DNA of 36,745 nucleotides, from IMG/VR virus record IMGVR_UViG_2585427964_000003; one strand, written 5' to 3'. The notes under the pieces were generated by a model. The model was not told the DNA's origin, ran no database searches, and saw only the letters and a list, made by a program, of their open reading frames with translations. A program made the position numbers and the translations under genes. The stretch comes from a virus. Taxonomy: Duplodnaviria; Heunggongvirae; Uroviricota; Caudoviricetes. Below, piece after piece: positions 6,864-33,128 of the stretch. The number at the start of each line of letters is the position of its first letter. The stretch's first letter is position 1.

Positions 6864-7556
6864 TTAGTTATCTTTTTGCTTTTCTTTATCCCATTTCTTT
6901 GCAGTGGTCTGATACCACTCTTCACGTGCTCGTTGTTCCTCGGCTCTGTCACTTGAATTATAGTTGTCTGTTTTAATTTTTTTGCTTCCCTGGGAAATCG
7001 GCCTCCAGTCTTCTCTAATCTTTTTCATCTGCTCAGCTATCTGTGTCATTGGACTCCTTGCACCTAAGTAGCTAACCCCCTCGAAAGAAGCCATATCATA
7101 AGAATACTCATTCCGCTCTCTTTCAGTTGAGCCCGGCTGTTTAGACCAGCTAATACTAACAGAATAAACTTGATCTTTAATCTGGTCATACTTACAAAGA
7201 CTGCTGTTGAGGGAATGGCCGTTTTTCAATACGCTAACCTTGCTAAATGGTATACCTTTATTTTTTCTATGTTCTGCATTAACCAGTGGGGGATTAAATC
7301 CGACTTCAATATCATAGGCTGGGGCATTTCCGGTATTAGCAATATTGATATCAAAATAAAAAGCAGCCCAAGAATTTGGTTCAAGAGTCACAACGACATG
7401 AGGTTGAACTGATGCGTCAACCATCCTTTTTGTCTCGTCTGCTAATAGCCTTGTTACTCTCCACAAGAAAAATGTAGCAACTGCTGTTAGCAATGCTGCC
7501 AAAGCGGAGATAAGTGTACTTACTGTGTTTATATGCTCTGCGATAAATTCGATCAT
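6864..7556 (-). CDS. Hypothetical membrane-anchored protein (cargo in Z/fun-equivalent variable locus)
   Basis: 230-aa ORF with AAGGA Shine-Dalgarno 7 nt upstream of ATG; one N-terminal hydrophobic helix (VSTLISALAALLTAVATFFLW), then a soluble domain and a lysine/glutamate-rich C-terminus. Visibly AT-rich compared with flanking P2 genes. No family recognised by eye. Confidence 0.6.
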   Translation of the reverse strand: MIEFIAEHINTVSTLISALAALLTAVATFFLWRVTRLLADETKRMVDASVQPHVVVTLEPNSWAAFYFDINIANTGNAPAYDIEVGFNPPLVNAEHRKNKGIPFSKVSVLKNGHSLNSSLCKYDQIKDQVYSVSISWSKQPGSTERERNEYSYDMASFEGVSYLGARSPMTQIAEQMKKIREDWRPISQGSKKIKTDNYNSSDRAEEQRAREEWYQTTAKKWDKEKQKDN

Positions 7557-8047
7557 GAGTTGTCCTTGGGGGCGTACTAATTGTTTTCAATACTAAAATA
7601 GCGCCGAGCTTGAAAAATTGCACACTTATAGTTCGATTTACCTCAACAGTTAAGGCTTCAACTTCCCCCATGCACCTCACCCAGCCCAAGACTGTATGAG
7701 GTCTGACAAAGAACTTCCTGACACTTGAAAACGAGGCAACGGCTAGGGTTTCTCGTAGGGCAAGGATTGAATACGAAGCCTGTATATTGCTCCGCGAACA
7801 CTGCTGAGGGCAGTTTAAATGTTGGGCGTTTATGTAGCCTTTCACTCACCAGCATGAGTTCAATGTCTGTGAGTTACCGACAACAATATAAAGGGGGTGG
7901 CATCATCATATATCCAAGCTAGAGTCAAATCCTCTAACTGGTTTTATGATCAGTGTCAATTGTTTGATTATTAAACGTTTACGAAGCAGCACGGGAGCCA
8001 TATAACTAATGGGCAGGTATAAGCCTGTATCACGAGGAATCAGTAAA

Positions 8048-13000: not shown

Positions 13001-13348
13001 TCAACTCACAGGGATGGTTAATGAAAGTGGCTGGCCGGTGTCGTTGTGCTGGCCGGTTAACGTGACCGTCATTCGCCCGTCAAAACGGCGCTCAGTGGTG
13101 ACGGATGACAGGGTGACGCGGGGTTCCCATTTCAGCACCGCCATGTAACAGGCGACCTTAATCTGCAACTCAAGCGCCGGGGTCTGCGGCTGGTCAATCA
13201 TTGATGCCAGCAACGAGCCGTAATCACGACGCATCACCCGTGAGCCGACCGGTGTGCGCAGGATATCGCCGATACTCTGGCTGATATGCTCAAGGTCAGT
13301 GACAGTCAGGCCATCACTGCGATTCATTCCGAGATAACGCGCTGTCAT
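13001..13348 (-). CDS. W: Baseplate wedge protein gpW (gp25-like)
   Basis: 115-aa ORF, size and position match P2 gpW. Confidence 0.88.
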   Translation of the reverse strand: MTARYLGMNRSDGLTVTDLEHISQSIGDILRTPVGSRVMRRDYGSLLASMIDQPQTPALELQIKVACYMAVLKWEPRVTLSSVTTERRFDGRMTVTLTGQHNDTGQPLSLTIPVS

Positions 13349-13980
13349 AAAGGGCTCCCGGTTGTGCCGCCACTGTCGCCGGGGTGTTTATGGGTATGCA
13401 GTACCTTACCGTTTGATGAGAGTTCACCGCCGGTGTGTTCAATGTTGCCGCGCATCGTCCCGCCCTTCTGCACTTCCAGCGTGCCGGTAATCAGCCTGTT
13501 GGTGCAGACCACCTCCGGGGTGTCCAGGGTGACGCGGGTTGATGCTTTCACCATGACCACCGGCACCGTGGCAGTAACAGAATCAGAAGCCGTCACGCTG
13601 GCCGTTTTAATTCCGCTTACCGTGAGTGCACTGGTTTCGGGTTCATATTCAATCACCGCCCCGTCAGGGAAACGGATATGCAGGGCATCCGCCGACACAG
13701 ACGGCGAGGGGTTATCGCCGGAATACATCCCCGGCAGAACGAACGCCGTGTCGAGTTCACCACCCACGGCCAGAATCAGCACCTGTTCCCCCACGGAAGG
13801 TGCCCACCATGTGCGCGAACGTCCTGCGCGATGGGTCAGCCACTGAAGCCAGTCGGTGCACATGCCGCCGGTCTGCACGCGGCAGCGACCGGCGTTAAGG
13901 TCGGTTTCGACGATAATGCCGGTGCGAATCATGTTGCGCAGTGCGCGCGCGAGTTCCTGAATATTTGCGAGAGTGTTCAT
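13345..13980 (-). CDS. V: Baseplate spike/hub protein gpV
   Basis: ATG at 13980 gives 211 aa (MNTLANIQ...), the length recalled for P2 V. The ORF-track start at 13998 is a TTG. Confidence 0.85.
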   Translation of the reverse strand: MNTLANIQELARALRNMIRTGIIVETDLNAGRCRVQTGGMCTDWLQWLTHRAGRSRTWWAPSVGEQVLILAVGGELDTAFVLPGMYSGDNPSPSVSADALHIRFPDGAVIEYEPETSALTVSGIKTASVTASDSVTATVPVVMVKASTRVTLDTPEVVCTNRLITGTLEVQKGGTMRGNIEHTGGELSSNGKVLHTHKHPGDSGGTTGSPL

Positions 13981-14063
13981 GCGTGTGAGATTGCACAATA
14001 TATAAAAGTTATGCTATCTGGATTCATTTGTAGAACGACCATACAACATTCGAGGAGAGCGTA

Positions 14064-14849
14064 ATGTTCAGTGATAATGTGACTAATGCGTGGTGGTTTA
14101 TCTCTTTGTATCTATTTTTATTAATAGCATTAACATTTGTTACCTTTGGTAAAAGTAATCTTATGAGGTTTATTGCACATCATTTCAATCTTGAGTATTC
14201 AGACAGAAAGTTAAAAATGCTCGACAAAAAATGGCGCGACATTCAACTATTTAAAATAATTAACGGAATCAATGTATCAGGCATCGAAGATGTGAGAATG
14301 ATACAGCAGGGGCTGATTGATGGAAAACTAAAAACATCGTATTTTTTCCTTACTCGCTTCTGGGGTGACATAACAAAACCACCACACATAATTAAAACAA
14401 TAATTGTAATTCTGGCCAGTATTATTTATATTCTCTTCGCATGTTATATACACAACAAACAATCCGCTATAGTAAGAGATGCCATAGGCATACCATATAA
14501 AAATATGATGTACTATGTTTATAGTGACAAAGTTCTTTTATCCTTCAAAAATAAAGCAGTTGAATTTAATAAAACTTATAGCCTTGCCGATTGCAAGAGA
14601 CTGCAAAACGTATTTATAAAAGACACACTTCCTGAAATCGCCTGCAATAAGCTCTTACAGCTAAACGAGGAGGACTCGGAATGGTTAAGTCAGGAGATTA
14701 AAGATAATAACAGCCAAAAAAAAGCATTATTAATAATATCCCTCATCTATTTCATTTCAGGTCTGGTTATATTCCTGTCATATACAAAATTCCTTTACGC
14801 CAATAAGAAGGTTGTAGAATACAAAGCATCAAATAAAAATCACTCATAA
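14064..14849 (+). CDS. Hypothetical integral membrane protein, three predicted TM helices (cargo in orf30-equivalent locus between V and S)
   Basis: 261-aa ORF on the opposite strand to the late operons; GAGGAGAG Shine-Dalgarno 4 nt before ATG; hydrophobic segments WWFISLYLFLLIALTFVTF, IIKTIIVILASIIYILFACYI and ALLIISLIYFISGLVIFLSY; strongly AT-rich with Lys/Asn/Ile-rich codon usage. Confidence 0.65.
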   Translation: MFSDNVTNAWWFISLYLFLLIALTFVTFGKSNLMRFIAHHFNLEYSDRKLKMLDKKWRDIQLFKIINGINVSGIEDVRMIQQGLIDGKLKTSYFFLTRFWGDITKPPHIIKTIIVILASIIYILFACYIHNKQSAIVRDAIGIPYKNMMYYVYSDKVLLSFKNKAVEFNKTYSLADCKRLQNVFIKDTLPEIACNKLLQLNEEDSEWLSQEIKDNNSQKKALLIISLIYFISGLVIFLSYTKFLYANKKVVEYKASNKNHS

Positions 14850-14855
14850 ACCTCT

Positions 14856-14890
14856 AAACATTGAGCGACCAGCATGGCCGCTCAATGTTT
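14856..14890. terminator. Perfect 12-bp inverted repeat hairpin (AAACATTGAGCG - 11 nt loop - CGCTCAATGTTT) between convergent genes
   Basis: Lies 7 nt after the stop of the 14064..14849 gene and 31 nt after the stop of minus-strand S; A/T runs form the stem ends. Confidence 0.5.
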
Positions 14891-14920
14891 AATTGCGCAT
14901 CAGCCTCTGCCTGGATAAAA

Positions 14921-15373
14921 CTAACGCTCAAGGTGAGCCAGGATAATCTCTTCAATCATCTGCACATCCTCACCGGTAAAGCCGAGCAGAGGACGCGCCG
15001 GATAATCAATTTTCTTACCGTCTTTCCGGTTTTCTTCCGACAGACCGAACTGATGCACGCTGGCGATTTTCGGTGACTTCCCGCCGTAAAACTCCATTGA
15101 TGCCTGTTCCGGGCTGGCGCGGATATGCAAAAAACGACTGGTGATAAGTTTCGCAAACATTTTTCGCTTAACACGACCAGTCTTTTTTCTGGCGCTCTGC
15201 TGCTGGCGTGGCACGTAGGGTGTGCCGTCCGGGGCTTTCTGTGCCATCACCCGACGCTGCTGACTCTGCCGCAGACGTTTCGCCAGTTCGGCACTCAGTC
15301 GTCGACGCCCTGACGGTGACAGCGACTCAATCAGTCCGGTCAGCCGGTCTTCAAAACGCTTAAACTCATTCAT
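14921..15373 (-). CDS. S: Tail completion / virion morphogenesis protein gpS
   Basis: 150-aa ORF, size and position match P2 S. Confidence 0.88.
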   Translation of the reverse strand: MNEFKRFEDRLTGLIESLSPSGRRRLSAELAKRLRQSQQRRVMAQKAPDGTPYVPRQQQSARKKTGRVKRKMFAKLITSRFLHIRASPEQASMEFYGGKSPKIASVHQFGLSEENRKDGKKIDYPARPLLGFTGEDVQMIEEIILAHLER

Positions 15374-17575: not shown

Positions 17576-17779
17576 TTACTCCCACAGATTGACAGTTTCA
17601 GCCACGGGCGCGGTCTGAACGTCGGGCAGTTCGACAGCGGTGCCGTGTGGCAGCACCGCACCCAGTTCAGCCAGTCCCGGATTTGCGGCGAGCACGGTCT
17701 CAACCACGCCCTCAGTGCGCCCGTAATACCGGACACAGATGGCGTCGAGCGTGTCGCTCTGTAGCGCAAAGGTCTTCAT
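17576..17779 (-). CDS. X: Tail protein gpX
   Basis: ATG at 17777-17779 (MKTFALQSD...) gives 67 aa as in P2 X; the start overlaps the L stop as ATGA. The ORF-track start at 17848 is upstream of this. Confidence 0.85.
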   Translation of the reverse strand: MKTFALQSDTLDAICVRYYGRTEGVVETVLAANPGLAELGAVLPHGTAVELPDVQTAPVAETVNLWE

Positions 17780-18288
17780 CAGATTTGACTCACGATGCAG
17801 CGCGGCTTGTCCTGGATACGCGCCACCGCCCAGCGCATATCCCGCCACAGTTCATCAATGGTGCTGTCAATGCTGTCAGCCTTCTTGTCACCTTTCGCAC
17901 TGGCATCCACGCCGCGATAACGCTCATAAAGCGACGCGGTCGCCATCGCACACACGGCGCGCTCGTAGTAAAAAACTTTGATGCTTTCACCGTCGATGTC
18001 GTCCGCCGGGACGTCCGCCAGACGCGTAAAACCGGCAGCAATTTTCTGTTCGCGGTACTCGTACAGCTCCGCATTCGTTTCAGCCATGCCTGACTTGATG
18101 GCCTCACGCAGACGGGCGGGGGCGACGGTCTGCTCAAGGCGCATACGTTCCCGGACGCGCTTCGGATCGATATCGGGAAAAAAGAACGTGTTTTTAATCA
18201 CCGGCTCGTCGCCTGCCGGTTGCGGGATGACCACCGTACCCTCACCGGACACGGGAGCCTCCTTTCGCGGAATAATCAGCGTCATCAT
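17779..18288 (-). CDS. L: Head completion protein gpL
   Basis: ATG-ATG at 18283-18288 (MMTLIIPRKE...) with a GAGGTAG Shine-Dalgarno gives 169 aa as in P2 L; the ORF-track start at 18348 is probably too far upstream. Confidence 0.85.
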   Translation of the reverse strand: MMTLIIPRKEAPVSGEGTVVIPQPAGDEPVIKNTFFFPDIDPKRVRERMRLEQTVAPARLREAIKSGMAETNAELYEYREQKIAAGFTRLADVPADDIDGESIKVFYYERAVCAMATASLYERYRGVDASAKGDKKADSIDSTIDELWRDMRWAVARIQDKPRCIVSQI

Positions 18289-18387
18289 GACTACCTCTGA
18301 AAAGTCGGGCGGTGGACGCCGGTGCAGTGTCAGGTGATTCACCCTCACTGACCGGCGTGCCGCCCTGGCGCGGGGCGCATTCGGTTG

Positions 18388-18465: not shown

Positions 18466-18658
18466 TGCGTATTTTCATGAAAGGAGATCACTCAATAACT
18501 TCCATCGAGATCGGGTAATAACATTTGAACAGATCGCTGAATAACATCGATGGAGATCACTTTTGACTCATTTTGTTATTCAGTGATCTCCATCAATGTT
18601 ATTGGAACTTCACAGGTGTGTTGATCTGTATCTTTTGCCATTCCGGTAAAGGATACCT

Positions 18659-20200
18659 ATGCCAACAGTTCCAATTTCTATGAGAAAACTTAAAGAAATT
18701 CTTAGGCTTAAATACGGTGTTGGACTCAGCCATCGACAAATTGGTCGTAGTCTTGCAATCTCCCCTTCCGTTGTATCCAGATATGCTAATCGGGCGGCTC
18801 AACTTGGCATAAAGCAGTGGCCCTTACCTACAGGATGGGATGATACAAAACTAAAACATGCGTTCCTTCAGACCCAGGTTAAGATGAAGAAGCACTCTCT
18901 GCCTGACTGGGCTACAGTACACCGGGAACTGCGTAATAAATGCGTGACGCTGCAGCTACTCTGGGAAGAATACTGTGAGCGTAATCCAGGCGGTTTTTAC
19001 AGCTATAACCATTACTGCCGGATGTACCGTGAATGGCTCAAAACCACTTCACCATCAATGCGTCAGGTACATAAAGCTGGCGAAAAACTTTTCGTTGATT
19101 ACTGTGGACCTACCGTTGGCGTTACCGACCCTGAGACCGGAGAAATAAGAACTGCTCAGGTCATCGTAGCTGTTCTCGGGGCATCAAGTTACACATGGGC
19201 AGAGGCCACCTGGTCTCAGCAGCTTGAAGACTGGGTGATGAGTCATGTTCGCTGCTTCCAGTGGTTGGGTGGCGTTCCTGAACTTGTTGTTCCGGACAAT
19301 CTGAAAAGCGCCACATCCAGGGCATGTAAGTATGATCCTGACGTTAACCCTACCTACCAGCAGATGCTTGAGCATTATAATGTCGCAGTTTTGCCTGCGC
19401 GGCCACGTAAACCGAAAGATAAAGCCAAAGCTGAAGTTGGCGTTCAGGTTGTTGAACGCTGGATCATGGCCCGAATCAGGCATGAGATCTTCTACAGCCT
19501 TGCATCGCTTAATCAGCGCATTCGGGAGTTGCTGGAAAGACTGAATAACAAAATAATGCAGAAGTTGGGTTATTCACGTGCAGAACTCTTCATCCAGCTT
19601 GATAAACCCGCACTGAAGCCTCTTCCTGAAGCCAGTTACAGTTACACCCTGGTGAAGAAAGTCAGAGTTCATGCCGATTACCACGTGGAAATCGACAAAC
19701 ATTACTACTCGGTTCCATGTTCGCTGTTAGGCCAGCAACTGGAAGCATGGATCTCCGGAGAACTGGTAAGACTCTTCAATCAGGGGCAGGAGGTTGCTGT
19801 GCACCCGCGCAAGCGTACTTATGGCTACAGTACCCGCAACGAGCACATGCCTGAAGCTCATCGACAGCATGCCACCTGGACGCCAGAGCGTCTTCTGGAA
19901 TGGGCGGGGCACATAGGCAGTGAAACTCATAGTTATGTGCTTCATATACTGAACTCTCGTCCACATCCGGAACAAAGCTATCGCTTCTGCCTTGGACTCC
20001 TGAACCTTCATAAAAAATACAGTAAAGCCAGACTTAATGCAGCATGTGCAAGAGCTCTGAAAACAAAGGTATGGCGTCTGTCAGGTATTAAATCGATCCT
20101 GGAAAAAGGTCTGGATAAACAACCTGTTCAGGATCCAAAACCAGATCTGTTATCCACGATGGAACACGAAAACGTACGCGGCAGTGAGTATTACCACTGA
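18659..20200 (+). CDS. istA: IS21-family transposase IstA
   Basis: 513-aa ORF with N-terminal helix-turn-helix (LSHRQIGRSLAISPSVVSRY) and a DDE-type integrase core; AAGGA Shine-Dalgarno before the ATG. Confidence 0.85.
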   Translation: MPTVPISMRKLKEILRLKYGVGLSHRQIGRSLAISPSVVSRYANRAAQLGIKQWPLPTGWDDTKLKHAFLQTQVKMKKHSLPDWATVHRELRNKCVTLQLLWEEYCERNPGGFYSYNHYCRMYREWLKTTSPSMRQVHKAGEKLFVDYCGPTVGVTDPETGEIRTAQVIVAVLGASSYTWAEATWSQQLEDWVMSHVRCFQWLGGVPELVVPDNLKSATSRACKYDPDVNPTYQQMLEHYNVAVLPARPRKPKDKAKAEVGVQVVERWIMARIRHEIFYSLASLNQRIRELLERLNNKIMQKLGYSRAELFIQLDKPALKPLPEASYSYTLVKKVRVHADYHVEIDKHYYSVPCSLLGQQLEAWISGELVRLFNQGQEVAVHPRKRTYGYSTRNEHMPEAHRQHATWTPERLLEWAGHIGSETHSYVLHILNSRPHPEQSYRFCLGLLNLHKKYSKARLNAACARALKTKVWRLSGIKSILEKGLDKQPVQDPKPDLLSTMEHENVRGSEYYH

Positions 20201-20211
20201 TACGGGATCCA

Positions 20212-20961
20212 ATGATGAATCATCTTTACGAACAACTGACCGCACTTAAACTCACCGGCTTCCGTGATGCGCTTAAAAAGCAACTTGCTCAGCCGGGCAC
20301 ATACCAGGAGCTGGGCTTCGAAGAACGCCTGTCATTACTGACAGCAGAAGAACTAACCTGCCGTGAAAACAGGAAGGCAGAGCGTCTGATCAAACATGCA
20401 CGGTTCAGACTTAATGCTGAGTTATCAAAGCTGGATTATCGTAACAATAGAGGGCTGGACAGGGCCCTCATCCGTTCACTCAGTCAGGGAAACTGGTTAA
20501 CCCTGAAACAAAATATTTTACTGACCGGGGCCACCGGCAGCGGTAAAACGTTCCTGGCATGTGCACTTGGTCATAATGCCTGCCGACAGGGATACAAGGT
20601 CTACTATTATCGCCTTAAAGCGCTGATGGAACAGTGCTATCAGGGGCATGCTGATGGAAGATACAGCAAACTTTTGACCAGGCTGAATAATAGCGATCTG
20701 CTGCTTCTGGATGACTGGGGGCTGGAACCTCTCTCATCAGAACAGCGTAGCGACCTGCTGGAAATAGTGGATCTGATGTACCAACGAGGCTCAATCATCG
20801 TAGTGAGCCAGTTGCCGGTGGAAAACTGGTACAAAATGATCGGAGACTCCACACATGCGGATGCCATCCTAGATCGACTGGTTCATGGCAGTATCAAGAT
20901 CGAACTTAAAGGAGAATCAATGCGGAAAATACAATCTCCGTTGACCGAAGGAGATCAGTGA
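20212..20961 (+). CDS. istB: IS21-family ATP-binding helper protein IstB
   Basis: 249-aa ORF with Walker A (GATGSGKT) and Walker B (LLLLDDWG), the typical IstB AAA+ architecture, immediately downstream of istA. Confidence 0.88.
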   Translation: MMNHLYEQLTALKLTGFRDALKKQLAQPGTYQELGFEERLSLLTAEELTCRENRKAERLIKHARFRLNAELSKLDYRNNRGLDRALIRSLSQGNWLTLKQNILLTGATGSGKTFLACALGHNACRQGYKVYYYRLKALMEQCYQGHADGRYSKLLTRLNNSDLLLLDDWGLEPLSSEQRSDLLEIVDLMYQRGSIIVVSQLPVENWYKMIGDSTHADAILDRLVHGSIKIELKGESMRKIQSPLTEGDQ

Positions 20962-21018
20962 AGGTAATTTAAAAACGGTTCTGTGAAAGTGACACGAACC
21001 GATCTCCATCGATGTTAC

Positions 21019-21711
21019 TCACCGATCTCCTTCACGGTAATACGCAGCCGCTTTGGGCTGCGGCTTCGGTTTCAGCTCCCGCTCCAGTCGTTCAATCTCT
21101 TTTTTGACGCCTGCCTGACAGTCGAGCTGTGTCGCACGTTGCAGGTGCGCCAGCGCCCCTGCGGCATCACCAGCGTCACGCAGAAACAGACCGGTGATTT
21201 TGTGCAGCTTTGCGCGCACTTCATCAGGCATGTCTGCCGTGGCGGTAAGTTCAAGGGTGTCCGTCAGCAGGCGGGTATCCACGGATTCACCGGCAGCGTG
21301 AGCGCGCATGGCCGCGAGTGCCACTTCCTCGGTGAACATGTACGGCGGGGTGCGGCGGTGTTTACCCGGCATGGTCAGACCGTACTTCAGGGCATAACGG
21401 GCAATCTCCAGCGCACCGGCAATATCGCCGGTATCCAGACGCCACAGCATGACCGTCATCAGAATGTCATCCTGTGCACCTTTGCCCTGCTCCAGCACGC
21501 CGTTCACCCACGGCAACCAGAACGGCAGCAGTTCGCGTTTTTTCGCGGCCTTCAGCTCTTTTGAATAAATCGCTTTCAGTGTGCGCTGGTCTGCGGCGAG
21601 CTTAACCAGCATCTGCTCATAGACAGTTGCATGTCGCAGCGGGGCGGCTTCCCGCTGCGCGGTCATCGCTGCCGAGACCCGCATCATGTGGCGCTGTGCG
21701 GGACTCGTCAT
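21019..21711 (-). pseudogene. M: Terminase small (endonuclease) subunit gpM, 3' end interrupted by IS insertion
   Basis: 230-aa ORF MTSPAQRHMMRVSAAMTAQ...; its last 8 codons (AYYREGDR-stop) are encoded by the IS right terminus. Native sequence runs up to the GCCGC duplication at 21047-21051. Confidence 0.8.
21047..21051. repeat. Target-site duplication GCCGC (right copy)
   Basis: Identical 5-mer to 18461-18465, directly flanking the right IS terminus. Confidence 0.7.
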
Positions 21712-27016: not shown

Positions 27017-27901
27017 TCAGGCGCAAGTTGGCATTGAGACCCCTTTCAGGGTATTAGGAATAATTATTTCAGGAGAAAAAATCATCACTTCCTCTCCAGA
27101 TTTTTTGAGATGTGCTGTATATTGCAATGAATACTCAACTTGCGGAAATCCATTATAAATATCTTTAATTTCCTTAGCGTTATCATAAGAAACAAGCCAA
27201 TTTGGGAAATTAATTTCTGTGAGTTTCTTCATAACCAATACATGGTCATCATGCTCATAAAAATTCCTGTAAAGCCCTTGCCCTTTAATATAGTAAGGAG
27301 GATCCAAATACAAAAGAATTTTATTTTTATCCACCTTTCCCATATTATCCATAAAATTCAAGGCATCAAGAAAATCCAAAGCATCCAGATTAGTTACTAC
27401 TATTCTTTGATTATAATTTGCTATCTTCTCAATTCTTGAAATTAAATCCGCCCTGTTAAAGCGAACATCCATTTTCCATTTTCCATTTTGTGATTTCCCG
27501 CCTATAACCCCCGCCTTGAGAATACCTGAACGATTTGTTCTATTTAAGAAAAACGCAGCAAAGCCAACCTCAAGCTTAGTAAACTCAGAAGGATTCGAAA
27601 TAACATAGCGATGAAAAGACCATTCATCCATATCTATCTTTGCTCGGCTAATAAGTCGGCAAAGCTCATCAGTATCACTAACAACAGATGACCAAAAAGA
27701 ATAAACAGCAAAATCTGCATCATTTATATAGATTTTACGGACATACTCTTCCAATAATAATTCTAAAGCCACCCCTGCACCACCAGCGTAAGGTTCTGCA
27801 TATGCTCCATCATTCAACGAGTTTTTTTCAATAACATCTTTTAAAAAGTAAGATAACTTACCTTTCCCGCCGGGGTATCTTAATGGAGTATAAAATTTCA
27901 T
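27017..27901 (-). CDS. Dam-class (D12 family) N6-adenine DNA methyltransferase
   Basis: 294-aa ORF with GAGGG Shine-Dalgarno; motifs YPGGKGKL near the N-terminus, PYAGGAG (SAM-binding FxGxG-like) and LDPPYY (catalytic DPPY). Strongly AT-rich; lies in the tin/old-equivalent position. Confidence 0.8.
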   Translation of the reverse strand: MKFYTPLRYPGGKGKLSYFLKDVIEKNSLNDGAYAEPYAGGAGVALELLLEEYVRKIYINDADFAVYSFWSSVVSDTDELCRLISRAKIDMDEWSFHRYVISNPSEFTKLEVGFAAFFLNRTNRSGILKAGVIGGKSQNGKWKMDVRFNRADLISRIEKIANYNQRIVVTNLDALDFLDALNFMDNMGKVDKNKILLYLDPPYYIKGQGLYRNFYEHDDHVLVMKKLTEINFPNWLVSYDNAKEIKDIYNGFPQVEYSLQYTAHLKKSGEEVMIFSPEIIIPNTLKGVSMPTCA

Positions 27902-27938
27902 AAATCCCTCTCATTCCTGATTTTGTAGTTTATCAGTT

Positions 27939-27958
27939 TCTGGACATCCATGTCCAGA
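27939..27958. promoter_or_regulatory. Perfect palindrome TCTGGACA-TCCA-TGTCCAGA upstream of the methyltransferase gene (candidate operator)
   Basis: 8-bp perfect inverted repeat with 4-nt spacer in the 69-bp gap between the two cargo genes, 38-57 nt upstream of the methyltransferase ATG. Confidence 0.4.
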
Positions 27959-27970
27959 TGTAGACAAATC

Positions 27971-29476
27971 TCACTCACTCCAAATAAGGCTTAATAACAA
28001 CTCAAAGTTATCCCACTCAGTGTTGACAGCCTCTTTTGAGGGAATTAAGTGTGGGTTATGTACATACTGCTGCAATGAACCATCATGTTTAGTTATTTGG
28101 CTCGAGAAAGTTATTACAGCCGTACATTGACTCCCCGTCATCTTTTTATTTTCCCGAAGGAAATTAGCACACATTTTAACCTTATCATGAAGCCCTGGAG
28201 TTCTATGTGGTTCCTTAAATTGTAACTTGTTTTCTTCAACAAAAGTGCTTACAGAGAGATCTATAAATATTCTCAACAATATTGAGATAGCATTAGGGGT
28301 GTTATCAAATGTCAGATGCGACTTAAGCTCATTAAATATTCTAGAGCATTTCTTATGCCCTCTAAAATTAAATTTCACATAAGATGGCACCAACACATTA
28401 CGATCTACTTTAGGAGGAGTTTTTCCCTTGTTTTTATTCTGTTCCGTGCCCGAAACTTTAGATTTACTCTCTTCTGTGCCTACATGTCTAGAATAATCAT
28501 CTTCCTGTTTATCCACACCTGTATTCTTTAAGGCATCACCTTCTGAAAGACCTACTTTCTTTACACTCACAGATGCATCATTTTTGTCAATAGAATCATG
28601 TTTTTTCTCTGTAAGAAAAGATTTAGGCTCCAGTAAACTCCACGGCTTATCTAAAAGAGATTCTGAAGGTTTTATTTTTTGTTCAATAATAAATGTAACC
28701 CTGTCATCTTGGCTACGAATCCTATTAACAGTAAAACAAGCCTTACCTTTATCATCCTCTTCAATCATTACATCTAAAATATTTTTTAATTGTGCACAAA
28801 AACGTTCATAAGGCTGATATGAGTATAGAACTCCATTAATGCTTTTTAAATTAAAATAATCCCTCACCTTTAAATCACCAAAAAGACGCGTGATGTTTGT
28901 GATTTTTAAAAGTCTTTTTTTAGCAATTATCTCTTTATATAAATCAGTATTGAACTCTATAAATGTAAGTATTTGATTACCAAATGACTGCTTACCCATC
29001 CTAGCCAGATGTCGTGCTTTTTCTGTTGCAGTCCATTCAACTCTTCCAACTCCAGCATTTTGACCAGTATGCTTTAAATTGACCCAATGCTCATATTCAT
29101 CATCGTCAAAAAGAACGCAGTTATCTATAACATTAATATCTTTAAGCTGAGTAATCTTAAGTTTTTCAAAAGCTTTCCGTGCTTTTTCTGTTGGTGCAAG
29201 TCTAGGAGAGTGTAAAAGTTTAAGGGCTGTAACTCGACGATTACCTTCAGCAACGACGAAAAAGCCAGATTCCTCTTCACTAGGATAAACTAATATGTTT
29301 TCAGACGGATCTAAACCTTTCGAAGCAATATCTTTAGCCAAGCGATAAATGCGGTCGTACTGCAAGTCAAGCATCTTGGCAATAGCATCACGCTGATTTT
29401 CTGCTGACGTCGGGAAACGAGGGTTATCAACATCCAAAAGTAACTTATTGATATTCATTGATTTTAGTTGATTCAT
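27971..29476 (-). CDS. ParB/Srx-fold nuclease-domain protein with long C-terminal extension (cargo gene)
   Basis: N-terminal region LLLDVDNPRF ... ILVYPSEEESGFFVVAEGNRRVTALKLL carries the ParB N-terminal domain signature (GxRR). A Lys/Glu/Ser-rich low-complexity linker is followed by a roughly 150-aa C-terminal domain of unrecognised type. Start chosen at ATG 29474-29476 (AGAGGA Shine-Dalgarno 8 nt upstream, 501 aa); the ORF track extends to 29545 (524 aa). AT-rich. Confidence 0.7.
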   Translation of the reverse strand: MNQLKSMNINKLLLDVDNPRFPTSAENQRDAIAKMLDLQYDRIYRLAKDIASKGLDPSENILVYPSEEESGFFVVAEGNRRVTALKLLHSPRLAPTEKARKAFEKLKITQLKDINVIDNCVLFDDDEYEHWVNLKHTGQNAGVGRVEWTATEKARHLARMGKQSFGNQILTFIEFNTDLYKEIIAKKRLLKITNITRLFGDLKVRDYFNLKSINGVLYSYQPYERFCAQLKNILDVMIEEDDKGKACFTVNRIRSQDDRVTFIIEQKIKPSESLLDKPWSLLEPKSFLTEKKHDSIDKNDASVSVKKVGLSEGDALKNTGVDKQEDDYSRHVGTEESKSKVSGTEQNKNKGKTPPKVDRNVLVPSYVKFNFRGHKKCSRIFNELKSHLTFDNTPNAISILLRIFIDLSVSTFVEENKLQFKEPHRTPGLHDKVKMCANFLRENKKMTGSQCTAVITFSSQITKHDGSLQQYVHNPHLIPSKEAVNTEWDNFELLLSLIWSE

Positions 29477-29832
29477 CAACATATCCTCTGTTGAATCTTT
29501 ATGATAAAAATTAATTATTTTTATCATAAATGATAGCGTAAACATAGTCTTATGAACGACATCAGCCCTGAAGCTTCAAAACTATCATTTACGTTTGCGA
29601 GGCACCATCTATCACATTGATTTATAATAAGTATCTTTATCTTCACTGCATTGCTCTCAAAAAATCACATAGATGGAAATTCCCCGTTGACACACTCCCA
29701 AGTGATGCAGATACATTTCAAGTGCTTCATACACATGATAACGGCTATCCCCCTAAATTCTGTGCGTTTCTTTTCCCTCCAGCACAAGGTTGAAATATCT
29801 TGCGTGCAGCTTTACTTTGTGAATCTTTGTCA

Positions 29833-32124
29833 TTATATCCGCGCCATTACTGTTGAGAATCCCGGCCACTCATCAGCGACCGGATACGTGAATTTTTTCC
29901 CGTCATAATTTACGGTCGCGCCACGCGCCAGCACCTCAAGCTCCCATCGTTGCGGCCTGATACCGTTCTGAGCGAGGTCAACGCGGATACGGGTAATTTG
30001 CAATCGTTCCGACCGGGTCAGTCTGGCCGACGGTGCTATTTCATGCGGTTTTAACGGGCTTCCGGCTCTTTGCTGACGATTTGGTGTTCTCAGTCCGTGT
30101 TTTAATGCGCCCCTGAGCGCCCTCACGACCTCCGGGTCATTCCATTCGATAACACCGTCATCAACCAGATTAAGCACTGCTGCGACGTGCTCAGAAGGTG
30201 TGGGAGCCGGTAACGAAGTATCACCACTGGTGAGCTTTCCACAGTTATTGACAGGACTCCGAGGCGCGGCGATGCCGCTTTTTAAAGTCAAAGGCTCAAC
30301 GACCGGAACTTTCAGCACAATGCGCCAGTCCGTCGTTCTGGTGATATGAATATGACGCGCGCCGAGATGCGGCGCGTAAATGCCGACCACTCTCTCGACT
30401 TCTTCCTCATACTCGTTAACGTCATCTGACGGGCTACGGGCGACCCTGACAGTCTGACAATCGCGCGGGACATTTGCCCCACCCTGCGCGCTGATATACA
30501 ACGCAAAATCACCACTGTCTGCGGCGGCGCGTGCAGCCTCGACGCGTTCGTCAAACTCATCAGCAATGCTGACGCCGCGAGGCAATTTGCGTAGCTCACG
30601 GTAAGCCCCCATTGTCGGCAGGCCAACCGTTTTAAATTGCGGGATGCGCCACGTTGACGCCCATGCGGTAACAGCCGCGGCAGTATCTTTAAGCGGCTTA
30701 CCGGTATCGTTATCGAGCTGACCATCCAGTGCATAGCCGTCGATATTTTTTGAAATGTATTTCGCGATATATCCCGCAGCACCGCCCCGGTTAAGGTGTT
30801 TTGCCTGAAAACGGTTTCGCGCAGCGCCTCTTTCGTCACCATCCTCTTTGAGCGCATAGCGACGCATGATTTCGATAATCTGGTTACGCTGGCGTGGATT
30901 ACAAAAAAGCATCATATGCCAGTGCGGCGTTCCGTCGTGGTGTGGCTCGACGACACGCAAACCGTAGACCTGTAAATCATTATCCTTGAATGCCGTGCGC
31001 ATCAGGCTCCAGATACGGCAGAGATAACGCTGCGCATCCTTTGGATTAAATGCCTCATCGTTCCAGCCGTGATTAAGCTGAACGGTTTTACTTTCGCCTT
31101 TTCCGACCTGACGTGTCGGGTGATACTTTGACGGCGCGGTCAGCGTGATAAACATCCCCACATCACCCTCTGCGGCGGCGTAACGCTCAATACCGGCAAT
31201 GGTGTTCATCAGCTCCATCCGGCGAATTTCAGGATTAGAAATACTGCCCATCACCTTACTGATAAGGTCGATGCGCTCGCCGGTTTCCCTGTTTTCAAGG
31301 TCACACGATTTAAGAAATTCCAGATTTGCCTGGCGGCGCGCACGCACATCACGAATGGCATGTTTACTGGCATAAGGAGAACGGTCTTTATTGACCTCCC
31401 CGACAGCTATCAGTAAAGCTTCATGCCAGCGCATACGCTGGCCTTTAAGCTGATGAGTCCACCACTCATCGTTAAACAGGCGGGCAATGGCAGAATATGC
31501 CTGCCTCGTGGTTATCTGTCCTTTACGGTATTTTTTCCAGTAGAGCGGGGAAATATTGAAAGCACGTGCAGCGCCAGCAACATGACCATACAGATGATCC
31601 TGCGCCTCATCCGTAAACAGTGATTCTTTTTCGCCATGCGCATCCACCCAGGCATCGCAGAGTTCCTCATACATCATGAAAAGCTGCGATGAAATACGGG
31701 CGGCAAACTTTTTCAGCTCCTTGTCATTCATCCCCGGCAGACGCGCATAGTGGTCACGCTCAGCCAGAAACAGCAACGACGCGTCGGTGTTCATTTCATG
31801 GCGCTGATTCACGCGCTCAATGCGCGGCCATAAACGACGCTGAAAAGTGGATGTGAGGAAATAAAACCCGTGTACCGGGCTTTTATTGCGCCGGATGTAG
31901 TCATAGCGTGAAGTAAACAGCGAGCGCAAAAAGTAAGGCAGGCGGTTAATCGTGGATAAAACCCCTTGCACCTGACGCATCTCGTCACGTGTAAGGGGTC
32001 TTTCGCGCCCGACGGCCTCGCGTGGCGCGTTCCATGCATAAGCACCGGTAAACGTCTTACCGGTGCCTGCAGCAAATGCTGACGTAGTTACGCAGGTGTA
32101 TTGCTCCTGGAAAGAATGACTCAT
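29833..32124 (-). CDS. A: Replication initiation endonuclease gpA (rolling-circle)
   Basis: 763-aa ORF MSHSFQEQYTCVTTSAFAAGTGKTFTGAYAWNAP...; size and position match P2 A (about 761 aa from memory). Confidence 0.92.
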   Translation of the reverse strand: MSHSFQEQYTCVTTSAFAAGTGKTFTGAYAWNAPREAVGRERPLTRDEMRQVQGVLSTINRLPYFLRSLFTSRYDYIRRNKSPVHGFYFLTSTFQRRLWPRIERVNQRHEMNTDASLLFLAERDHYARLPGMNDKELKKFAARISSQLFMMYEELCDAWVDAHGEKESLFTDEAQDHLYGHVAGAARAFNISPLYWKKYRKGQITTRQAYSAIARLFNDEWWTHQLKGQRMRWHEALLIAVGEVNKDRSPYASKHAIRDVRARRQANLEFLKSCDLENRETGERIDLISKVMGSISNPEIRRMELMNTIAGIERYAAAEGDVGMFITLTAPSKYHPTRQVGKGESKTVQLNHGWNDEAFNPKDAQRYLCRIWSLMRTAFKDNDLQVYGLRVVEPHHDGTPHWHMMLFCNPRQRNQIIEIMRRYALKEDGDERGAARNRFQAKHLNRGGAAGYIAKYISKNIDGYALDGQLDNDTGKPLKDTAAAVTAWASTWRIPQFKTVGLPTMGAYRELRKLPRGVSIADEFDERVEAARAAADSGDFALYISAQGGANVPRDCQTVRVARSPSDDVNEYEEEVERVVGIYAPHLGARHIHITRTTDWRIVLKVPVVEPLTLKSGIAAPRSPVNNCGKLTSGDTSLPAPTPSEHVAAVLNLVDDGVIEWNDPEVVRALRGALKHGLRTPNRQQRAGSPLKPHEIAPSARLTRSERLQITRIRVDLAQNGIRPQRWELEVLARGATVNYDGKKFTYPVADEWPGFSTVMARI

Positions 32125-33128
32125 TCACATACACCGGCATAGACACTACTGCAAACGGCTTTATCATTCGCCGAAGCCAGTAAATCAAACTGAGTACCCC
32201 CACGCGTTGTCATTGTCCAGTCATGGTAGGTTTCTATTCCGTATGCCTCGACTGTTACAATCTCAATACGACGTTCTGCGCGTAGCGGATCATGTGTGGA
32301 TGGGAAAAAAGTGGAATTTCCCCGACGGGAGCACGACGCAACCAGTCGTTCCCATTCAGCAACCCGTTTTATTTCCTCCGGCCACCGGCGAAAAATTTCT
32401 GCCAGTTCAGATTTACGGACATGAATACATGGCATACAACCAACACGGCCACACCCCTGCTGATATAACGGATTTGGCTTAATGTCATGTCTTCTGGCTA
32501 TTGCAAATACATCTTCATGCTTCCAGTGCAAAATCGGGCGATATACATGCAATCCGGGGGTGTTGTCTGCATCCTCTTCCCAGACAGGTAAAGCAGCGCG
32601 TGATGGCGATTCCTGAGCACGCACTCCCTGCCAGCTAATCACTTCCTCAAATTCATTGAGTAAAGGCAATATTACCTGAGAACGCACGGGCTCATGTTTC
32701 AGTTCAAATGTGCAAAATCTGGCTTTGGTTGATGGGAAACGCCCCTTCCACAGACACAAATCAAGAAACGGGATACCCGTTGGTTTGAGAATTTCCAGCG
32801 CACAACTGATGCGCTGGTGCGCTTCTTCTTCCGACATTCCACAATCGTTAACCAACAAATCAGGCCATTTGGTCTGGATAAACTTGCGCTTTGATTCAAT
32901 CCGGCAGGAAAAATCAGCTCTGACTCTTTTAATTGGGCCAAGCCGTTTTTCCAGATAATCCAGATATTTCATTGTCTGTGGATGTTCATGTCCCGTATCA
33001 GCAAAAACCGGCAATATGGGTACATTTTCTTCAATAGCGACAAGCCACTGAGCAAGGCTGTCCTTTCCACCTGAAACAAAAATAACATTGATGGTATTTT
33101 CAGTATGGCAACGAGCATCAGTAATCAT
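32121..33128 (-). CDS. PAPS reductase / DndC-like PP-loop ATP pyrophosphatase family protein
   Basis: 335-aa ORF with N-terminal PP-loop VIFVSGGKDS and a C-terminal cysteine cluster (GCGRVGCMPC). Start overlaps the orf83-like stop and its stop overlaps the A start (ATGA at both junctions). Confidence 0.75.
   Translation of the reverse strand: MITDARCHTENTINVIFVSGGKDSLAQWLVAIEENVPILPVFADTGHEHPQTMKYLDYLEKRLGPIKRVRADFSCRIESKRKFIQTKWPDLLVNDCGMSEEEAHQRISCALEILKPTGIPFLDLCLWKGRFPSTKARFCTFELKHEPVRSQVILPLLNEFEEVISWQGVRAQESPSRAALPVWEEDADNTPGLHVYRPILHWKHEDVFAIARRHDIKPNPLYQQGCGRVGCMPCIHVRKSELAEIFRRWPEEIKRVAEWERLVASCSRRGNSTFFPSTHDPLRAERRIEIVTVEAYGIETYHDWTMTTRGGTQFDLLASANDKAVCSSVYAGVCE

What the first reader, a model, noticed from the sequence alone, without database searches (positions are those of the whole stretch)
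13981..14849. S-V variable locus carries an opposite-strand, AT-rich gene for a three-TM membrane protein
Seen in sequence: between V (start 13980) and S (stop 14921), where P2 has orf30, a plus-strand 261-aa ORF with a strong Shine-Dalgarno encodes three hydrophobic helices and lysine/asparagine-rich loops. Its composition and orientation differ sharply from the flanking late operons. Inference: horizontally acquired cargo; small membrane proteins in such loci are frequently superinfection-exclusion or abortive-infection factors.
Basis: partly seen in the sequence, partly recalled or inferred. Interest (0 to 1): 0.55.

Follow-up and report, generated by a model that had tools for sequence, protein, structure and literature searches.

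The report
Phage P2 orf30 membrane-protein gene
The AT-rich gene between tail genes V and S is phage P2's long-known but uncharacterised orf30, which encodes a three-pass inner-membrane protein that sits in the same slot across P2-like prophages and may help the host exclude other phages, though that role is untested.

Summary
A 261-codon plus-strand ORF (14064-14849, about 32% GC against 55-61% in the flanks) with a GGAG ribosome site lies between gpV (start 13980) and gpS (stop 14921), and it encodes three hydrophobic helices.

It is not a replacement for P2 orf30. It is orf30 itself: 86% amino-acid and 92.8% nucleotide identity, and the same length, slot and strand.

- **Family.** It belongs to a small family (PHROG 2407, unknown function).
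- **Synteny.** Members only 22-33% identical occupy the same V|S slot, in the same opposite orientation, in 20 of 22 P2-like viral contigs.
- **Composition.** Every member is 30-36% GC whatever the phage GC.
- **Allele swapping.** Alleles swap between near-identical phages.
- **Survival in remnants.** The gene stays intact in decayed prophage and P4-like remnants.
- **Predicted topology.** N-out/C-in, with a basic cytoplasmic loop and a periplasmic domain that has exactly two cysteines in 27 of 27 members.
- **No known relatives.** It matches no Pfam or PADLOC model above threshold and has no significant fold match.
- **Slot occupancy in E. coli.** orf30 fills the slot in 460 of 1578 genomes that carry V/S. 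Most of the rest are empty, and rare alternatives include a RelA/SpoT-domain protein.

My best reading, at about 0.4 confidence, is a prophage accessory protein acting at the cell envelope to exclude other phages. The function is untested. The object itself is already known.

The parts
13345..13980 (-). gpV (baseplate spike), the left flank of the slot. Its ATG is at 13980-13978.
   Evidence: synteny with P2 gene V; annotated 'phage baseplate assembly protein V' in matching E. coli genomes.
13981..14063 (.). 83-bp divergent control region. It holds the pV late-promoter region and the Ogr activator site (equivalent to 14022-14049; TGT-N11-ACA at 14029-14045). It also holds the orf30 ribosome-binding site (GGAG 14053-14056). 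No strong sigma-70 promoter for orf30 was found. The best candidate by eye is weak: TTGCAC at 13991-13996, N18, then TG-n-TATCTG at 14012-14020.
   Evidence: P2 record features transferred by alignment. The region is 98% conserved among 8 alleles whose ORFs differ by up to 12%. The consensus scan found no promoter-like site upstream of the ATG. Sequence read.
14064..14849 (+). orf30 coding sequence (261 aa plus stop), the orthologue of P2 Orf30 and a member of PHROG 2407.
   Evidence: All 8 alleles compared are intact and the same length, with dN/dS 0.45.
14091..14147 (+). TM1 (residues about 10-28). The short acidic N-terminus is predicted to be periplasmic.
   Evidence: Hydropathy. No K/R in the N-terminus of any of 27 members. 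pN/pS is about 1.1, so only hydrophobicity appears constrained.
14148..14384 (+). Loop 1 (residues 29-107), predicted cytoplasmic, basic and helical. It is the best-conserved part of the family (D59-x-Q61-L-F, N-G68-I-N, D76, G87).
   Evidence: Alignment A3. Family-wide net charge +5.0. pN/pS 0.36. AF2 helices 48-67, 74-86 and 91-94.
14385..14453 (+). TM2 (residues about 108-130).
14454..14720 (+). Loop 2 (residues 131-219), a predicted periplasmic domain of four beta-strands (141-173) followed by two helices. The helices carry the Cys pair C177 (14592-14594) and C194 (14643-14645), a probable disulfide.
   Evidence: AF2 models. Exactly 2 Cys in this loop in 27 of 27 members; C194 is invariant. 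Net charge about 0.
14721..14846 (+). TM3 (residues about 220-242) and the basic C-terminal tail (243-261), predicted cytoplasmic.
   Evidence: tail net charge +1.8; K254 nearly invariant.
14855..14891 (.). Symmetric hairpin (AAACATTGAGCG...CGCTCAATGTTT). It is a probable bidirectional intrinsic terminator that closes both orf30 and the converging O-operon transcript ending with S.
   Evidence: RNA fold -22.7 kcal/mol, z = -3.6, 0 of 200 shuffles as stable. Annotated in P2 as the putative rho-independent terminator of the O operon.
14921..15373 (-). gpS (tail completion), the right flank of the slot.

Best explanation
**Identity (shown).** This is phage P2's gene orf30, carried by a P2-like prophage. 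It is a self-contained unit set against the flow of the two late operons: its own ribosome site, a 261-codon ORF and a shared bidirectional terminator.

**Protein (predicted).** It is a three-pass inner-membrane protein.
- The N-terminus lies in the periplasm.
- An 80-residue basic helical loop lies in the cytoplasm.
- A 90-residue beta/alpha domain, stabilised by a conserved cysteine pair, lies in the periplasm.
- A basic tail lies in the cytoplasm.

**Evolution (shown).** It belongs to a small family found almost only in P2-like prophages, their remnants and one P4-like remnant. The family normally sits in this same V|S slot, stays AT-rich everywhere, diverges far faster than its neighbours, and is exchanged as alleles between otherwise near-identical phages.

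**Mechanism (inferred).** The protein is most likely made in the lysogen and works at the cell envelope for the benefit of host and prophage. The most probable action is excluding other phages at or near genome entry across the inner membrane. In that picture the variable periplasmic domain contacts the invader or a host entry factor, and the conserved cytoplasmic loop binds a conserved partner. It probably plays no part in building P2 virions.

Identity and architecture are near-certain. The exclusion role is the leading guess, not a demonstrated function.
For: **Identity.**
- 92.8% nucleotide and 86% amino-acid identity to P2 orf30, with the same length, slot and strand.
- Full-length match to PHROG 2407, E = 2.6e-144.

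**Topology.**
- Three hydrophobic segments.
- Family-wide charge pattern: N-terminus -1.5, loop 1 +5.0, loop 2 -0.4, tail +1.8. Exactly two Cys in loop 2 in 27 of 27 members.
- Two AF2 models agree (pLDDT 77 and 78.5, pTM 0.57 and 0.58).

**A real, selected gene.**
- All 8 alleles examined are intact. dN/dS is 0.45 overall and 0.36 in both loops, against 0.07-0.14 for V, S, W and R.

**Conflict-like evolution.**
- Members 22-33% identical to this one sit in the same slot in 20 of 22 viral contigs, while J, W, V and R are 56-84% identical.
- L028 and L032 have V 96% and J 100% identical but family proteins only 55% identical. L037 and L042 have J 97% identical and family proteins 25%.

**Acts for the host or lysogen rather than the virion.**
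- P2's record calls it nonessential.
- About 57% of sampled E. coli V/S junctions are empty.
- The gene is intact in four decayed elements carrying unrelated alleles: L036, L046, L009 and the P4-like remnant L047.
- In Pantoea it overlaps the stop codon of int, downstream of cI, so it lies in the lysogenic operon.

**Defence neighbourhood.** The same slot elsewhere holds a RelA/SpoT-domain protein that matches a PADLOC candidate, an ApeA-like protein, and a HigBA-like pair. A NACHT protein lies beside one remnant.

**Moron-like unit.** AT-rich composition, its own terminator, and an empty allele of the site in related phages.
Against: - No convincing sigma-70 promoter was found upstream, so expression in the lysogen is not shown.
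- Neither of the two papers I read that tested anti-phage systems from P2-like prophages mentions orf30. This is weak negative evidence.
- From my own knowledge, P2 vir mutants plate on P2 lysogens. If so, any exclusion cannot be directed at P2 itself.
- Fast divergence and a dN/dS of 0.45 could also reflect relaxed constraint on a membrane protein.
- Guilt by association within a mixed-cargo slot is weak evidence.
Confidence: 0.4

Rival explanations
1. Abortive-infection effector. Orf30 is a latent membrane-damaging protein. Its cytoplasmic loop senses a phage product, after which it depolarises or permeabilises the inner membrane and kills the infected cell before progeny form.
For: It is a single-gene multi-TM protein in a slot that elsewhere carries toxin-type cargo (HigBA-like, RelA/SpoT-domain, ApeA-like). 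Loop 1, the strongly conserved cytoplasmic loop, could be a sensor. The persistent AT-richness would suit H-NS silencing of a toxic gene, an idea taken from the abstract of bioRxiv 10.64898/2026.09.05.749240, whose text I could not read.
Against: No similarity to any known Abi or effector model. The conserved disulfide-bearing periplasmic domain has no obvious role in a purely cytoplasm-triggered pore. No antitoxin or partner gene is conserved next to it.
Confidence: 0.15
2. Lysogenic-conversion factor unrelated to phages. Orf30 is an envelope protein that changes host physiology (stress tolerance, colonisation, resistance to colicins or other envelope-targeting agents) and is kept because it helps the host.
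For: It is retained intact in decayed prophages and in chromosomal contexts without phage genes (L009, L010, L036, L046). It is nonessential for P2. It is present in 460 and absent from the rest of 1578 E. coli genomes that carry V/S, which fits a niche-dependent benefit. It is a membrane protein with a periplasmic domain.
Against: Allele swapping and extreme divergence between near-identical phages are more typical of conflict genes than of housekeeping-like fitness factors. The family is almost confined to P2/P4-type elements. Its slot neighbours are defence-type genes.
Confidence: 0.2
3. Phage lytic-cycle accessory. Orf30 helps P2's own infection, for example by tuning lysis timing, preventing re-adsorption or DNA injection into already-lysing cells, or conditioning the membrane for tail or DNA passage.
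For: It has held a conserved position beside the lysis/tail-completion operon and the spike gene V in 20 of 22 P2-like viral contigs. Its 5' region overlaps the Ogr-activated pV control region, which is 98% conserved. In some relatives a -10-like element lies about 45-50 nt from the Ogr-type site on the family gene's side; I read this by eye from the sequences printed and did not test it.
Against: It is on the opposite strand to both late operons. It is annotated nonessential in P2. It is absent from about 57% of sampled E. coli V/S junctions. It is intact where the virion genes have decayed. In Pantoea it lies in the cI-int operon. It does not match holin, antiholin or spanin families.
Confidence: 0.1
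4. Recently acquired, essentially neutral foreign DNA. Orf30 is an AT-rich ORF that landed in a permissive intergenic site and has no maintained function.
For: AT-rich composition. Presence/absence polymorphism. dN/dS is higher than in the neighbours, and TM1 evolves near-neutrally.
Against: A 261-codon open frame at 32% GC is very unlikely to stay open without selection. All 8 alleles are intact and loop dN/dS is 0.36. Homologues 22-33% identical keep the same length, architecture, Cys pair, slot and orientation. AT-richness is the same across hosts and phages of 43-64% GC, so it is not an un-ameliorated recent import.
Confidence: 0.05

Closest known systems
Bacteriophage P2 Orf30 (AAD03281.1, AF063097 9439-10224) / PHROG 2407
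   Same: Same gene: 86% amino-acid and 92.8% nucleotide identity, 261 aa, the same slot between V and S, the same opposite orientation, and the same upstream Ogr site and downstream terminator. Full-length PHROG match.
   Different: Only allelic differences, concentrated in TM1 and TM2. Neither the P2 record ('nonessential') nor PHROG ('unknown function') assigns a function.
Pfam DUF6216 (PF19723), an uncharacterised family of about 270 residues
   Same: Five of 27 family members give co-linear sub-threshold matches over TM1 and loop 1 (best 24.3 bits, E = 2.2e-5). The profile length (270) is similar to the protein. One distant member carries a precomputed PF19723 tag.
   Different: The window protein does not match at all. 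No member I scanned individually reaches the 27.3-bit gathering score. DUF6216 itself has no known function, so it adds no mechanism.
Inner-membrane superinfection-exclusion proteins of temperate and virulent phages (P22 SieA, HK97 gp15, T4 Imm; from my own knowledge)
   Same: What it may work like: a small phage-encoded inner-membrane protein, dispensable for phage growth, encoded as a compositionally odd stand-alone unit among structural genes, and highly variable between related phages.
   Different: No detectable sequence similarity. No annotated exclusion PHROG or Pfam family is hit by any of 27 members. Orf30 is larger, with three TM segments and two folded loops of 80-90 residues. No exclusion phenotype is known.
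The other nonessential genes of P2 known for phage interference: old, tin and fun(Z)
   Same: Accessory genes at recognised variable sites of P2-like genomes. PMC3091744 lists the orf30 site with the TO-region and Z-region as three such sites. old, tin and fun are established phage-interference genes (PMC9122126, PMC9519451).
   Different: No sequence similarity to them is shown here. Those loci hold hundreds of unrelated systems. The V|S slot is dominated by one family, with swapped alleles or an empty site.
Claudin/TARP-type fold (helical membrane bundle with an extracytoplasmic beta-sheet and a conserved disulfide)

Membership tests
P2 Orf30 / PHROG 2407 | Full-length sequence similarity to P2 Orf30 | tested here: met
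   BLASTP 86% identity over 261 of 261 residues, E = 1e-169. PHROG 2407 E = 2.6e-144, positions 1-261 of 261.
P2 Orf30 / PHROG 2407 | Location between late genes V and S, on the strand opposite to both | tested here: met
   The same arrangement holds in 20 of 22 viral contigs carrying divergent members.
P2 Orf30 / PHROG 2407 | Three-TM architecture with two Cys in the second loop | tested here: met
   (27 of 27 members).
Pfam DUF6216 (PF19723) | Score at or above the curated gathering threshold (27.3 bits) | tested here: not met
   The window protein gives no hit. The best member I scanned individually scores 24.3 bits. Five of 27 members match at E <= 0.01.
Moron (autonomous accessory transcription unit in a phage genome; Hendrix-type definition, from my own knowledge) | Inserted between genes that are adjacent in related phages | tested here: met
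   The empty V|S junction has a 66-bp spacer in most E. coli P2-like prophages.
Moron (autonomous accessory transcription unit in a phage genome; Hendrix-type definition, from my own knowledge) | Composition distinct from the surrounding genome | tested here: met
   GC 0.32 against 0.58.
Moron (autonomous accessory transcription unit in a phage genome; Hendrix-type definition, from my own knowledge) | Own terminator | tested here: met
   Hairpin 14855-14891, -22.7 kcal/mol, z = -3.6. Annotated as a terminator in P2.
Moron (autonomous accessory transcription unit in a phage genome; Hendrix-type definition, from my own knowledge) | Own promoter, active in the lysogen | tested here: inconclusive
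   The consensus scan finds no site upstream, and only a weak TTGCAC-N18-TATCTG candidate is visible by eye. Indirect support: the Pantoea homologue lies in the cI-int operon. Expression itself cannot be tested with these tools.
Known superinfection-exclusion protein families (SieA, SieB, Imm, Sp, HK97 gp15, Cor/Llp, Sie2009) | Sequence or profile similarity to a characterised member | tested here: not met
   PHROG and Pfam scans of the window protein and of all 27 members hit only the unknown-function PHROG 2407.
Known superinfection-exclusion protein families (SieA, SieB, Imm, Sp, HK97 gp15, Cor/Llp, Sie2009) | Blocks infection by a superinfecting phage when expressed | not testable with these tools
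   Needs plating and DNA-entry assays. No report was found in the papers searched.
Known anti-phage defence systems (PADLOC-DB 2.0) | Match to any defence-protein model | tested here: not met
   0 families at E <= 10.
Phage lysis proteins (holin, antiholin, spanin) | Family match and co-transcription with the late lysis operon | tested here: not met
   No Pfam or PHROG lysis family is hit. The gene converges on the lysis/tail-completion operon instead of being part of it.
Claudin/TARP fold | Significant structural superposition | tested here: not met

The most novel reading that the evidence does not exclude
Orf30 founds a family specific to P2-like phages: inner-membrane proteins with no detectable structural relative that act as a swappable 'exclusion allele'. 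Each allele would block genome entry of a different set of competing phages through its variable, disulfide-bonded periplasmic domain. The gene would be kept AT-rich so that H-NS holds it in check. On this reading the V|S slot would be a previously unlisted, single-family immunity locus of P2-like prophages, present in about 8% of complete E. coli genomes.
Probability: 0.25. Interest if true: 0.6.

Novelty: already known. Interest (0 to 1): 0.35.

Why it matters
orf30 has been annotated in the P2 reference record (AF063097) as a nonessential gene of unknown function. It is carried by 460 of 5426 complete E. coli genomes. P2-like prophages are now recognised as major carriers of anti-phage systems, but the two papers I read that tested systems from these prophages do not mention orf30.

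If Orf30 is an envelope-level exclusion factor, a common E. coli prophage gene would gain a function. A further defence site, occupied by one family, would be added to P2-like genomes. A membrane protein with no detectable structural relative would become available for study.

The patterns found here are conserved slot, persistent AT-richness, allele swapping and survival in decayed prophages. They make the question directly testable and give concrete constructs: the C177/C194 pair, the loop-1 motif, and allele swaps between phages.

Tried and rejected
**Family and defence libraries.** Pfam, NCBIfam and PADLOC scans of the window protein gave nothing above threshold. A PHROG scan of all 27 members gave only the unknown-function family.

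**Locus searches.** Scanning genome contigs failed for four alignments because no stretch was conserved enough. Only the A5 subgroup could be scanned, so the host range I report is partial.

**Literature.** The one paper that might link DUF6216 to defence (bioRxiv 10.64898/2026.09.05.749240) is indexed but could not be opened. I use only its abstract, and only as a lead. Searches for orf30 found no functional study.

**Ideas rejected.**
- The 357-aa and 246-aa alternative cargoes of the E. coli slot are not divergent family members (hhalign probability below 1%).
- An Ogr-activated promoter for orf30 does not fit this window. The site centre is about 25 nt upstream of the ATG, so a start about 55 nt downstream of the centre would fall inside the ORF.
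- A lysis-gene role is unlikely (opposite strand, no family match).
Full report
**1. The observation**

The ORF is there. The ORF listing gives 14064-14849 on the + strand, 261 aa, ATG start. GGAG lies at 14053-14056, seven bases before the ATG.

GC falls to 0.32-0.36 across the ORF from 0.55-0.61 in the flanks. By my own estimate, at that composition about 7.5% of random codons are stops, so a 261-codon open frame is not a chance event.

A Kyte-Doolittle scan finds three hydrophobic stretches (about 10-28, 108-130, 220-242). The protein is 10.3% Lys and 6.9% Asn. The flanks are gpV (13345-13980, -) and gpS (14921-15373, -).

**2. What it is**

The region is 92.8% identical in DNA to bacteriophage P2 at the annotated gene orf30 ('nonessential'). 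It also matches 20 other P2-group phage records from E. coli and Yersinia. The protein is 86% identical to P2 Orf30 over all 261 residues without gaps. It covers PHROG 2407 ('unknown function') end to end. So the finding is P2 orf30 itself, not a gene that replaces it.

The P2 record places two features here that transfer by alignment. One is the Ogr activator site of the pV late promoter, at window 14022-14049, just upstream of the orf30 ribosome site. The other is a putative terminator of the O operon between the orf30 stop and the S stop. That hairpin (14855-14891) folds at -22.7 kcal/mol (z = -3.6). It is symmetric, so it can close both converging transcripts.

The 83-bp V-orf30 spacer is 98% conserved among eight alleles whose ORFs differ by up to 12%. 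The consensus scan finds no sigma-70-like promoter upstream of the ATG. I can point only to a weak TTGCAC-N18-TATCTG candidate.

**3. How the slot behaves in E. coli**

A query spanning V-orf30-S matches 1578 of 5426 complete E. coli genomes, and 460 of them carry orf30. In an evenly spaced sample of the ranking, about 57% of junctions span only 1155 bp. These are empty, with a 66-bp spacer. Rare alternatives are:
- a 359-aa RelA/SpoT-domain protein that also matches the PADLOC candidate PDC-S33 (L002);
- an unrelated 357-aa ORF (L003);
- a 246-aa same-strand ORF, apparently the 741-bp ORF that PMC6823313 reports at this site in phage R18C (L014).

The two hypothetical proteins are not divergent family members.

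In the occupied allele the whole spacer is replaced, right up to the V start and S stop codons. The cassette brings its own Ogr-type site and terminator.

**4. The family**

A word-indexed search of 5.8 billion proteins found only five clusters, four of them 75-96% identical and one 41% identical from Enterobacter. An exhaustive HMMER search of 1.84 billion representatives found 44 hits. About 23 are full-length, 239-271 aa, and 18-32% identical. All 27 aligned members hit PHROG 2407 and no annotated PHROG.

The alignment shows invariant G68, G87, C194 and I212, and near-invariant G29, Q61, D76 and K254. The best-conserved block lies in loop 1 (D-x-Q-L-F-R-x-x-N-G-I-N-V ... D-A ... G-x-L).

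Five members give sub-threshold, co-linear matches to Pfam DUF6216. The best of those I scanned individually scores 24.3 bits against a 27.3-bit cut-off. DUF6216 is probably a distant sister family, and it too is uncharacterised.

**5. Architecture**

Across the 27 members, the segment before TM1 has no Lys or Arg (net charge -1.5). Loop 1 is net +5.0, loop 2 is -0.4, and the tail is +1.8. Loop 2 holds exactly two cysteines in every member. By the positive-inside rule, and because paired cysteines are expected in the oxidising periplasm, the topology is:
- N-terminus out;
- loop 1 (29-107) cytoplasmic;
- loop 2 (131-219) periplasmic;
- C-terminus in.

Two AlphaFold2 runs, with 6 and 12 sequences, agree (pLDDT 77.1 and 78.5, pTM 0.57 and 0.58). 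Both give a long TM1 helix and three short helices in loop 1. After TM2 come four beta-strands (141-173) and two helices that carry C177 and C194. A long helix through TM3 follows.

No structure search is significant. Claudin/TARP-type folds head both PDB lists, but with TM-scores of 0.13-0.21. I record that as a resemblance of layout only.

**6. Evolution: the main new result**

- **Same slot.** Two scans of IMG/VR returned 22 contigs encoding family members. I mapped P2 genes onto them by tblastn. In 20 the family gene lies between V and S on the opposite strand, exactly as here. Two have it just beyond R, and one has it after int.
- **Hosts.** Named relatives come from Yersinia frederiksenii, Enterobacter, Leclercia and Pantoea.
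- **Fast divergence.** In those contigs J, W, V and R are 56-84% identical to the window's proteins. The family protein is 22-33% identical.
- **Constant AT-richness.** Every member is 30-36% GC (GC3 0.29-0.41) whether the flanks are 43% or 64% GC. AT-richness is a maintained property of the family, not the mark of a recent import.
- **Allele swapping.** Divergence of the family protein tracks V poorly (Spearman 0.32, against 0.67 for V versus J). L028 and L032 have V 96% and J 100% identical but family proteins 55% identical. L037 and L042 have J 97% identical and family proteins 25%. Alleles of one family are therefore exchanged within the slot.
- **Selection within E. coli and Yersinia phages.** Eight alleles are all intact and the same length, and they look mosaic. 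dN/dS is 0.45 against 0.07-0.14 for V, S, W and R. By region it is about 1.1 in TM1 and 0.36 in both loops. The loops carry the constraint.

**7. Where else the gene lives**

- In Pantoea sp. S-LA4 a member (23% identical) overlaps the stop codon of the integrase of a 186/P2-like prophage, downstream of cI. It is therefore within the lysogenic operon.
- In another Pantoea strain the same gene sits at the same chromosomal place with, at most, a small possible integrase remnant (a 79-aa ORF) left of the prophage.
- L036 and L046 are heavily deleted P2-type remnants, with D fused to V and only fragments of S and R. Both still carry an intact family gene. The two proteins are only 21% identical, so these are independent cases. 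A NACHT-domain protein lies about 1.5 kb from the gene in L046.
- In Leclercia the gene lies in a decayed P4-like satellite, between an alpha-primase fragment and host genes. PMC13586616 lists that end of P4 as a minor defence site.
- One member sits in a plain chromosomal context.
- No partner gene is conserved.
- Other cargo sharing the V|S slot in relatives includes an ORF6N protein with a HigB/HigA-like pair (identified by eye from the translations, not scanned), and an ApeA-like protein.

**8. Mechanism**

Shown:
- identity with P2 orf30;
- dispensability, both as annotated and by natural absence;
- coding constraint;
- conserved slot and orientation, and constant AT-richness;
- allele exchange;
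- survival in decayed elements.

Predicted: the topology, the periplasmic disulfide domain, and the bidirectional terminator.

Inferred: the protein acts in the lysogen at the envelope. The most likely role is excluding other phages at genome entry (about 0.4).

The rivals are an abortive-infection membrane effector (0.15), a non-phage lysogenic-conversion role (0.2), a lytic-cycle accessory (0.1), and neutral foreign DNA (0.05).

Against the defence reading:
- no homology to any known system;
- no clear promoter;
- no mention of orf30 in the two papers I read that tested systems from P2-like prophages;
- from my own knowledge, P2 vir grows on P2 lysogens, so P2 itself would not be the target.

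**9. Comparison and novelty**

The object is already known. orf30 is annotated in the P2 reference record, and PMC3091744 names its site as one of three horizontally variable regions of P2-like phages, citing earlier work. I found no function assigned in any paper I could search.

What I did not find described in those papers is the family-level picture: one family holding the slot in P2-like prophages of several enterobacterial hosts, persistent AT-richness, allele swapping, a predicted N-out/C-in topology with a conserved periplasmic Cys pair, and retention in remnants.

A specialist would not be surprised to see orf30 in a P2-like prophage, hence the modest score. These patterns do turn an old loose end into a testable hypothesis.

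Noticed in passing
window 18531-21028 (ORFs 18659-20200 + and 20212-20961 +): An IS21-family insertion sequence lies between late genes L (17779-18348) and M (21019-21711), on the opposite strand. It encodes IstA (rve and Mu-transposase C-terminal domains) and IstB (IstB_IS21, E = 2e-67). Its terminal inverted repeats are at 18531-18558 and 21001-21028 (28 nt, 93% complementary). It probably interrupts the O-N-M-L...S late operon, so this prophage may be defective while orf30 stays intact.
   Followed up: partly
window 27017-29545 (-): The classic P2 hotspot between portal gene Q and replication gene A carries a two-gene PD-Lambda-5 system. The A component is 524 aa (PADLOC E = 6e-168). The B component is a 294-aa D12-class adenine methyltransferase (E = 1e-121).
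   Followed up: partly
window 32121-33128 (-): A 335-aa PAPS-reductase-domain protein (Pfam E = 5e-35, with weaker PADLOC matches to SspD, DndC and BrxP) lies immediately beside gene A.
   Followed up: no
window 6864-7845 (-): The Z/fun variable locus between FI and G holds two overlapping ORFs (230 and 142 aa). Neither has a Pfam or PADLOC match.
   Followed up: partly
L002 1082-2161 (E. coli GIMC1405:EC_Lstone01); L039 1891-3672; L035 8760-10400; L046 8335-10218: Other cargo in or beside the V|S slot of related prophages. L002 has a 359-aa RelA/SpoT-domain protein that matches PADLOC PDC-S33. L039 has an ApeA-like 593-aa protein. L035 has an ORF6N protein with a HigB/HigA-like pair. L046 has a NACHT-domain protein next to a prophage remnant. 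The slot behaves as a small defence-type hotspot.
   Followed up: partly
window 14921-15373 compared with L022-L043: gpS is only 42-55% identical between this prophage and the other P2-like contigs, while its neighbours R, V, W and J are 56-84% identical. The gene next to the slot is itself unusually divergent, or it exists as distinct allelic types.
   Followed up: no
window 14043-14047; L002, L004, L014 and L022-L043 spacers: An ACA(C)AAC motif, the distal half of the Ogr-type activator site, recurs about 65-75 nt from the V start in every version of the slot. L002 has two copies, one at each end of its cargo, as if the insertion duplicated the pV activator site.
   Followed up: partly
literature (bioRxiv 10.64898/2026.09.05.749240): A 2026 preprint on H-NS silencing of AT-rich antiviral loci in E. 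coli mentions DUF6216, the Pfam family that five Orf30 relatives match below threshold. The text could not be opened, so the context of that mention is unknown.
   Followed up: partly
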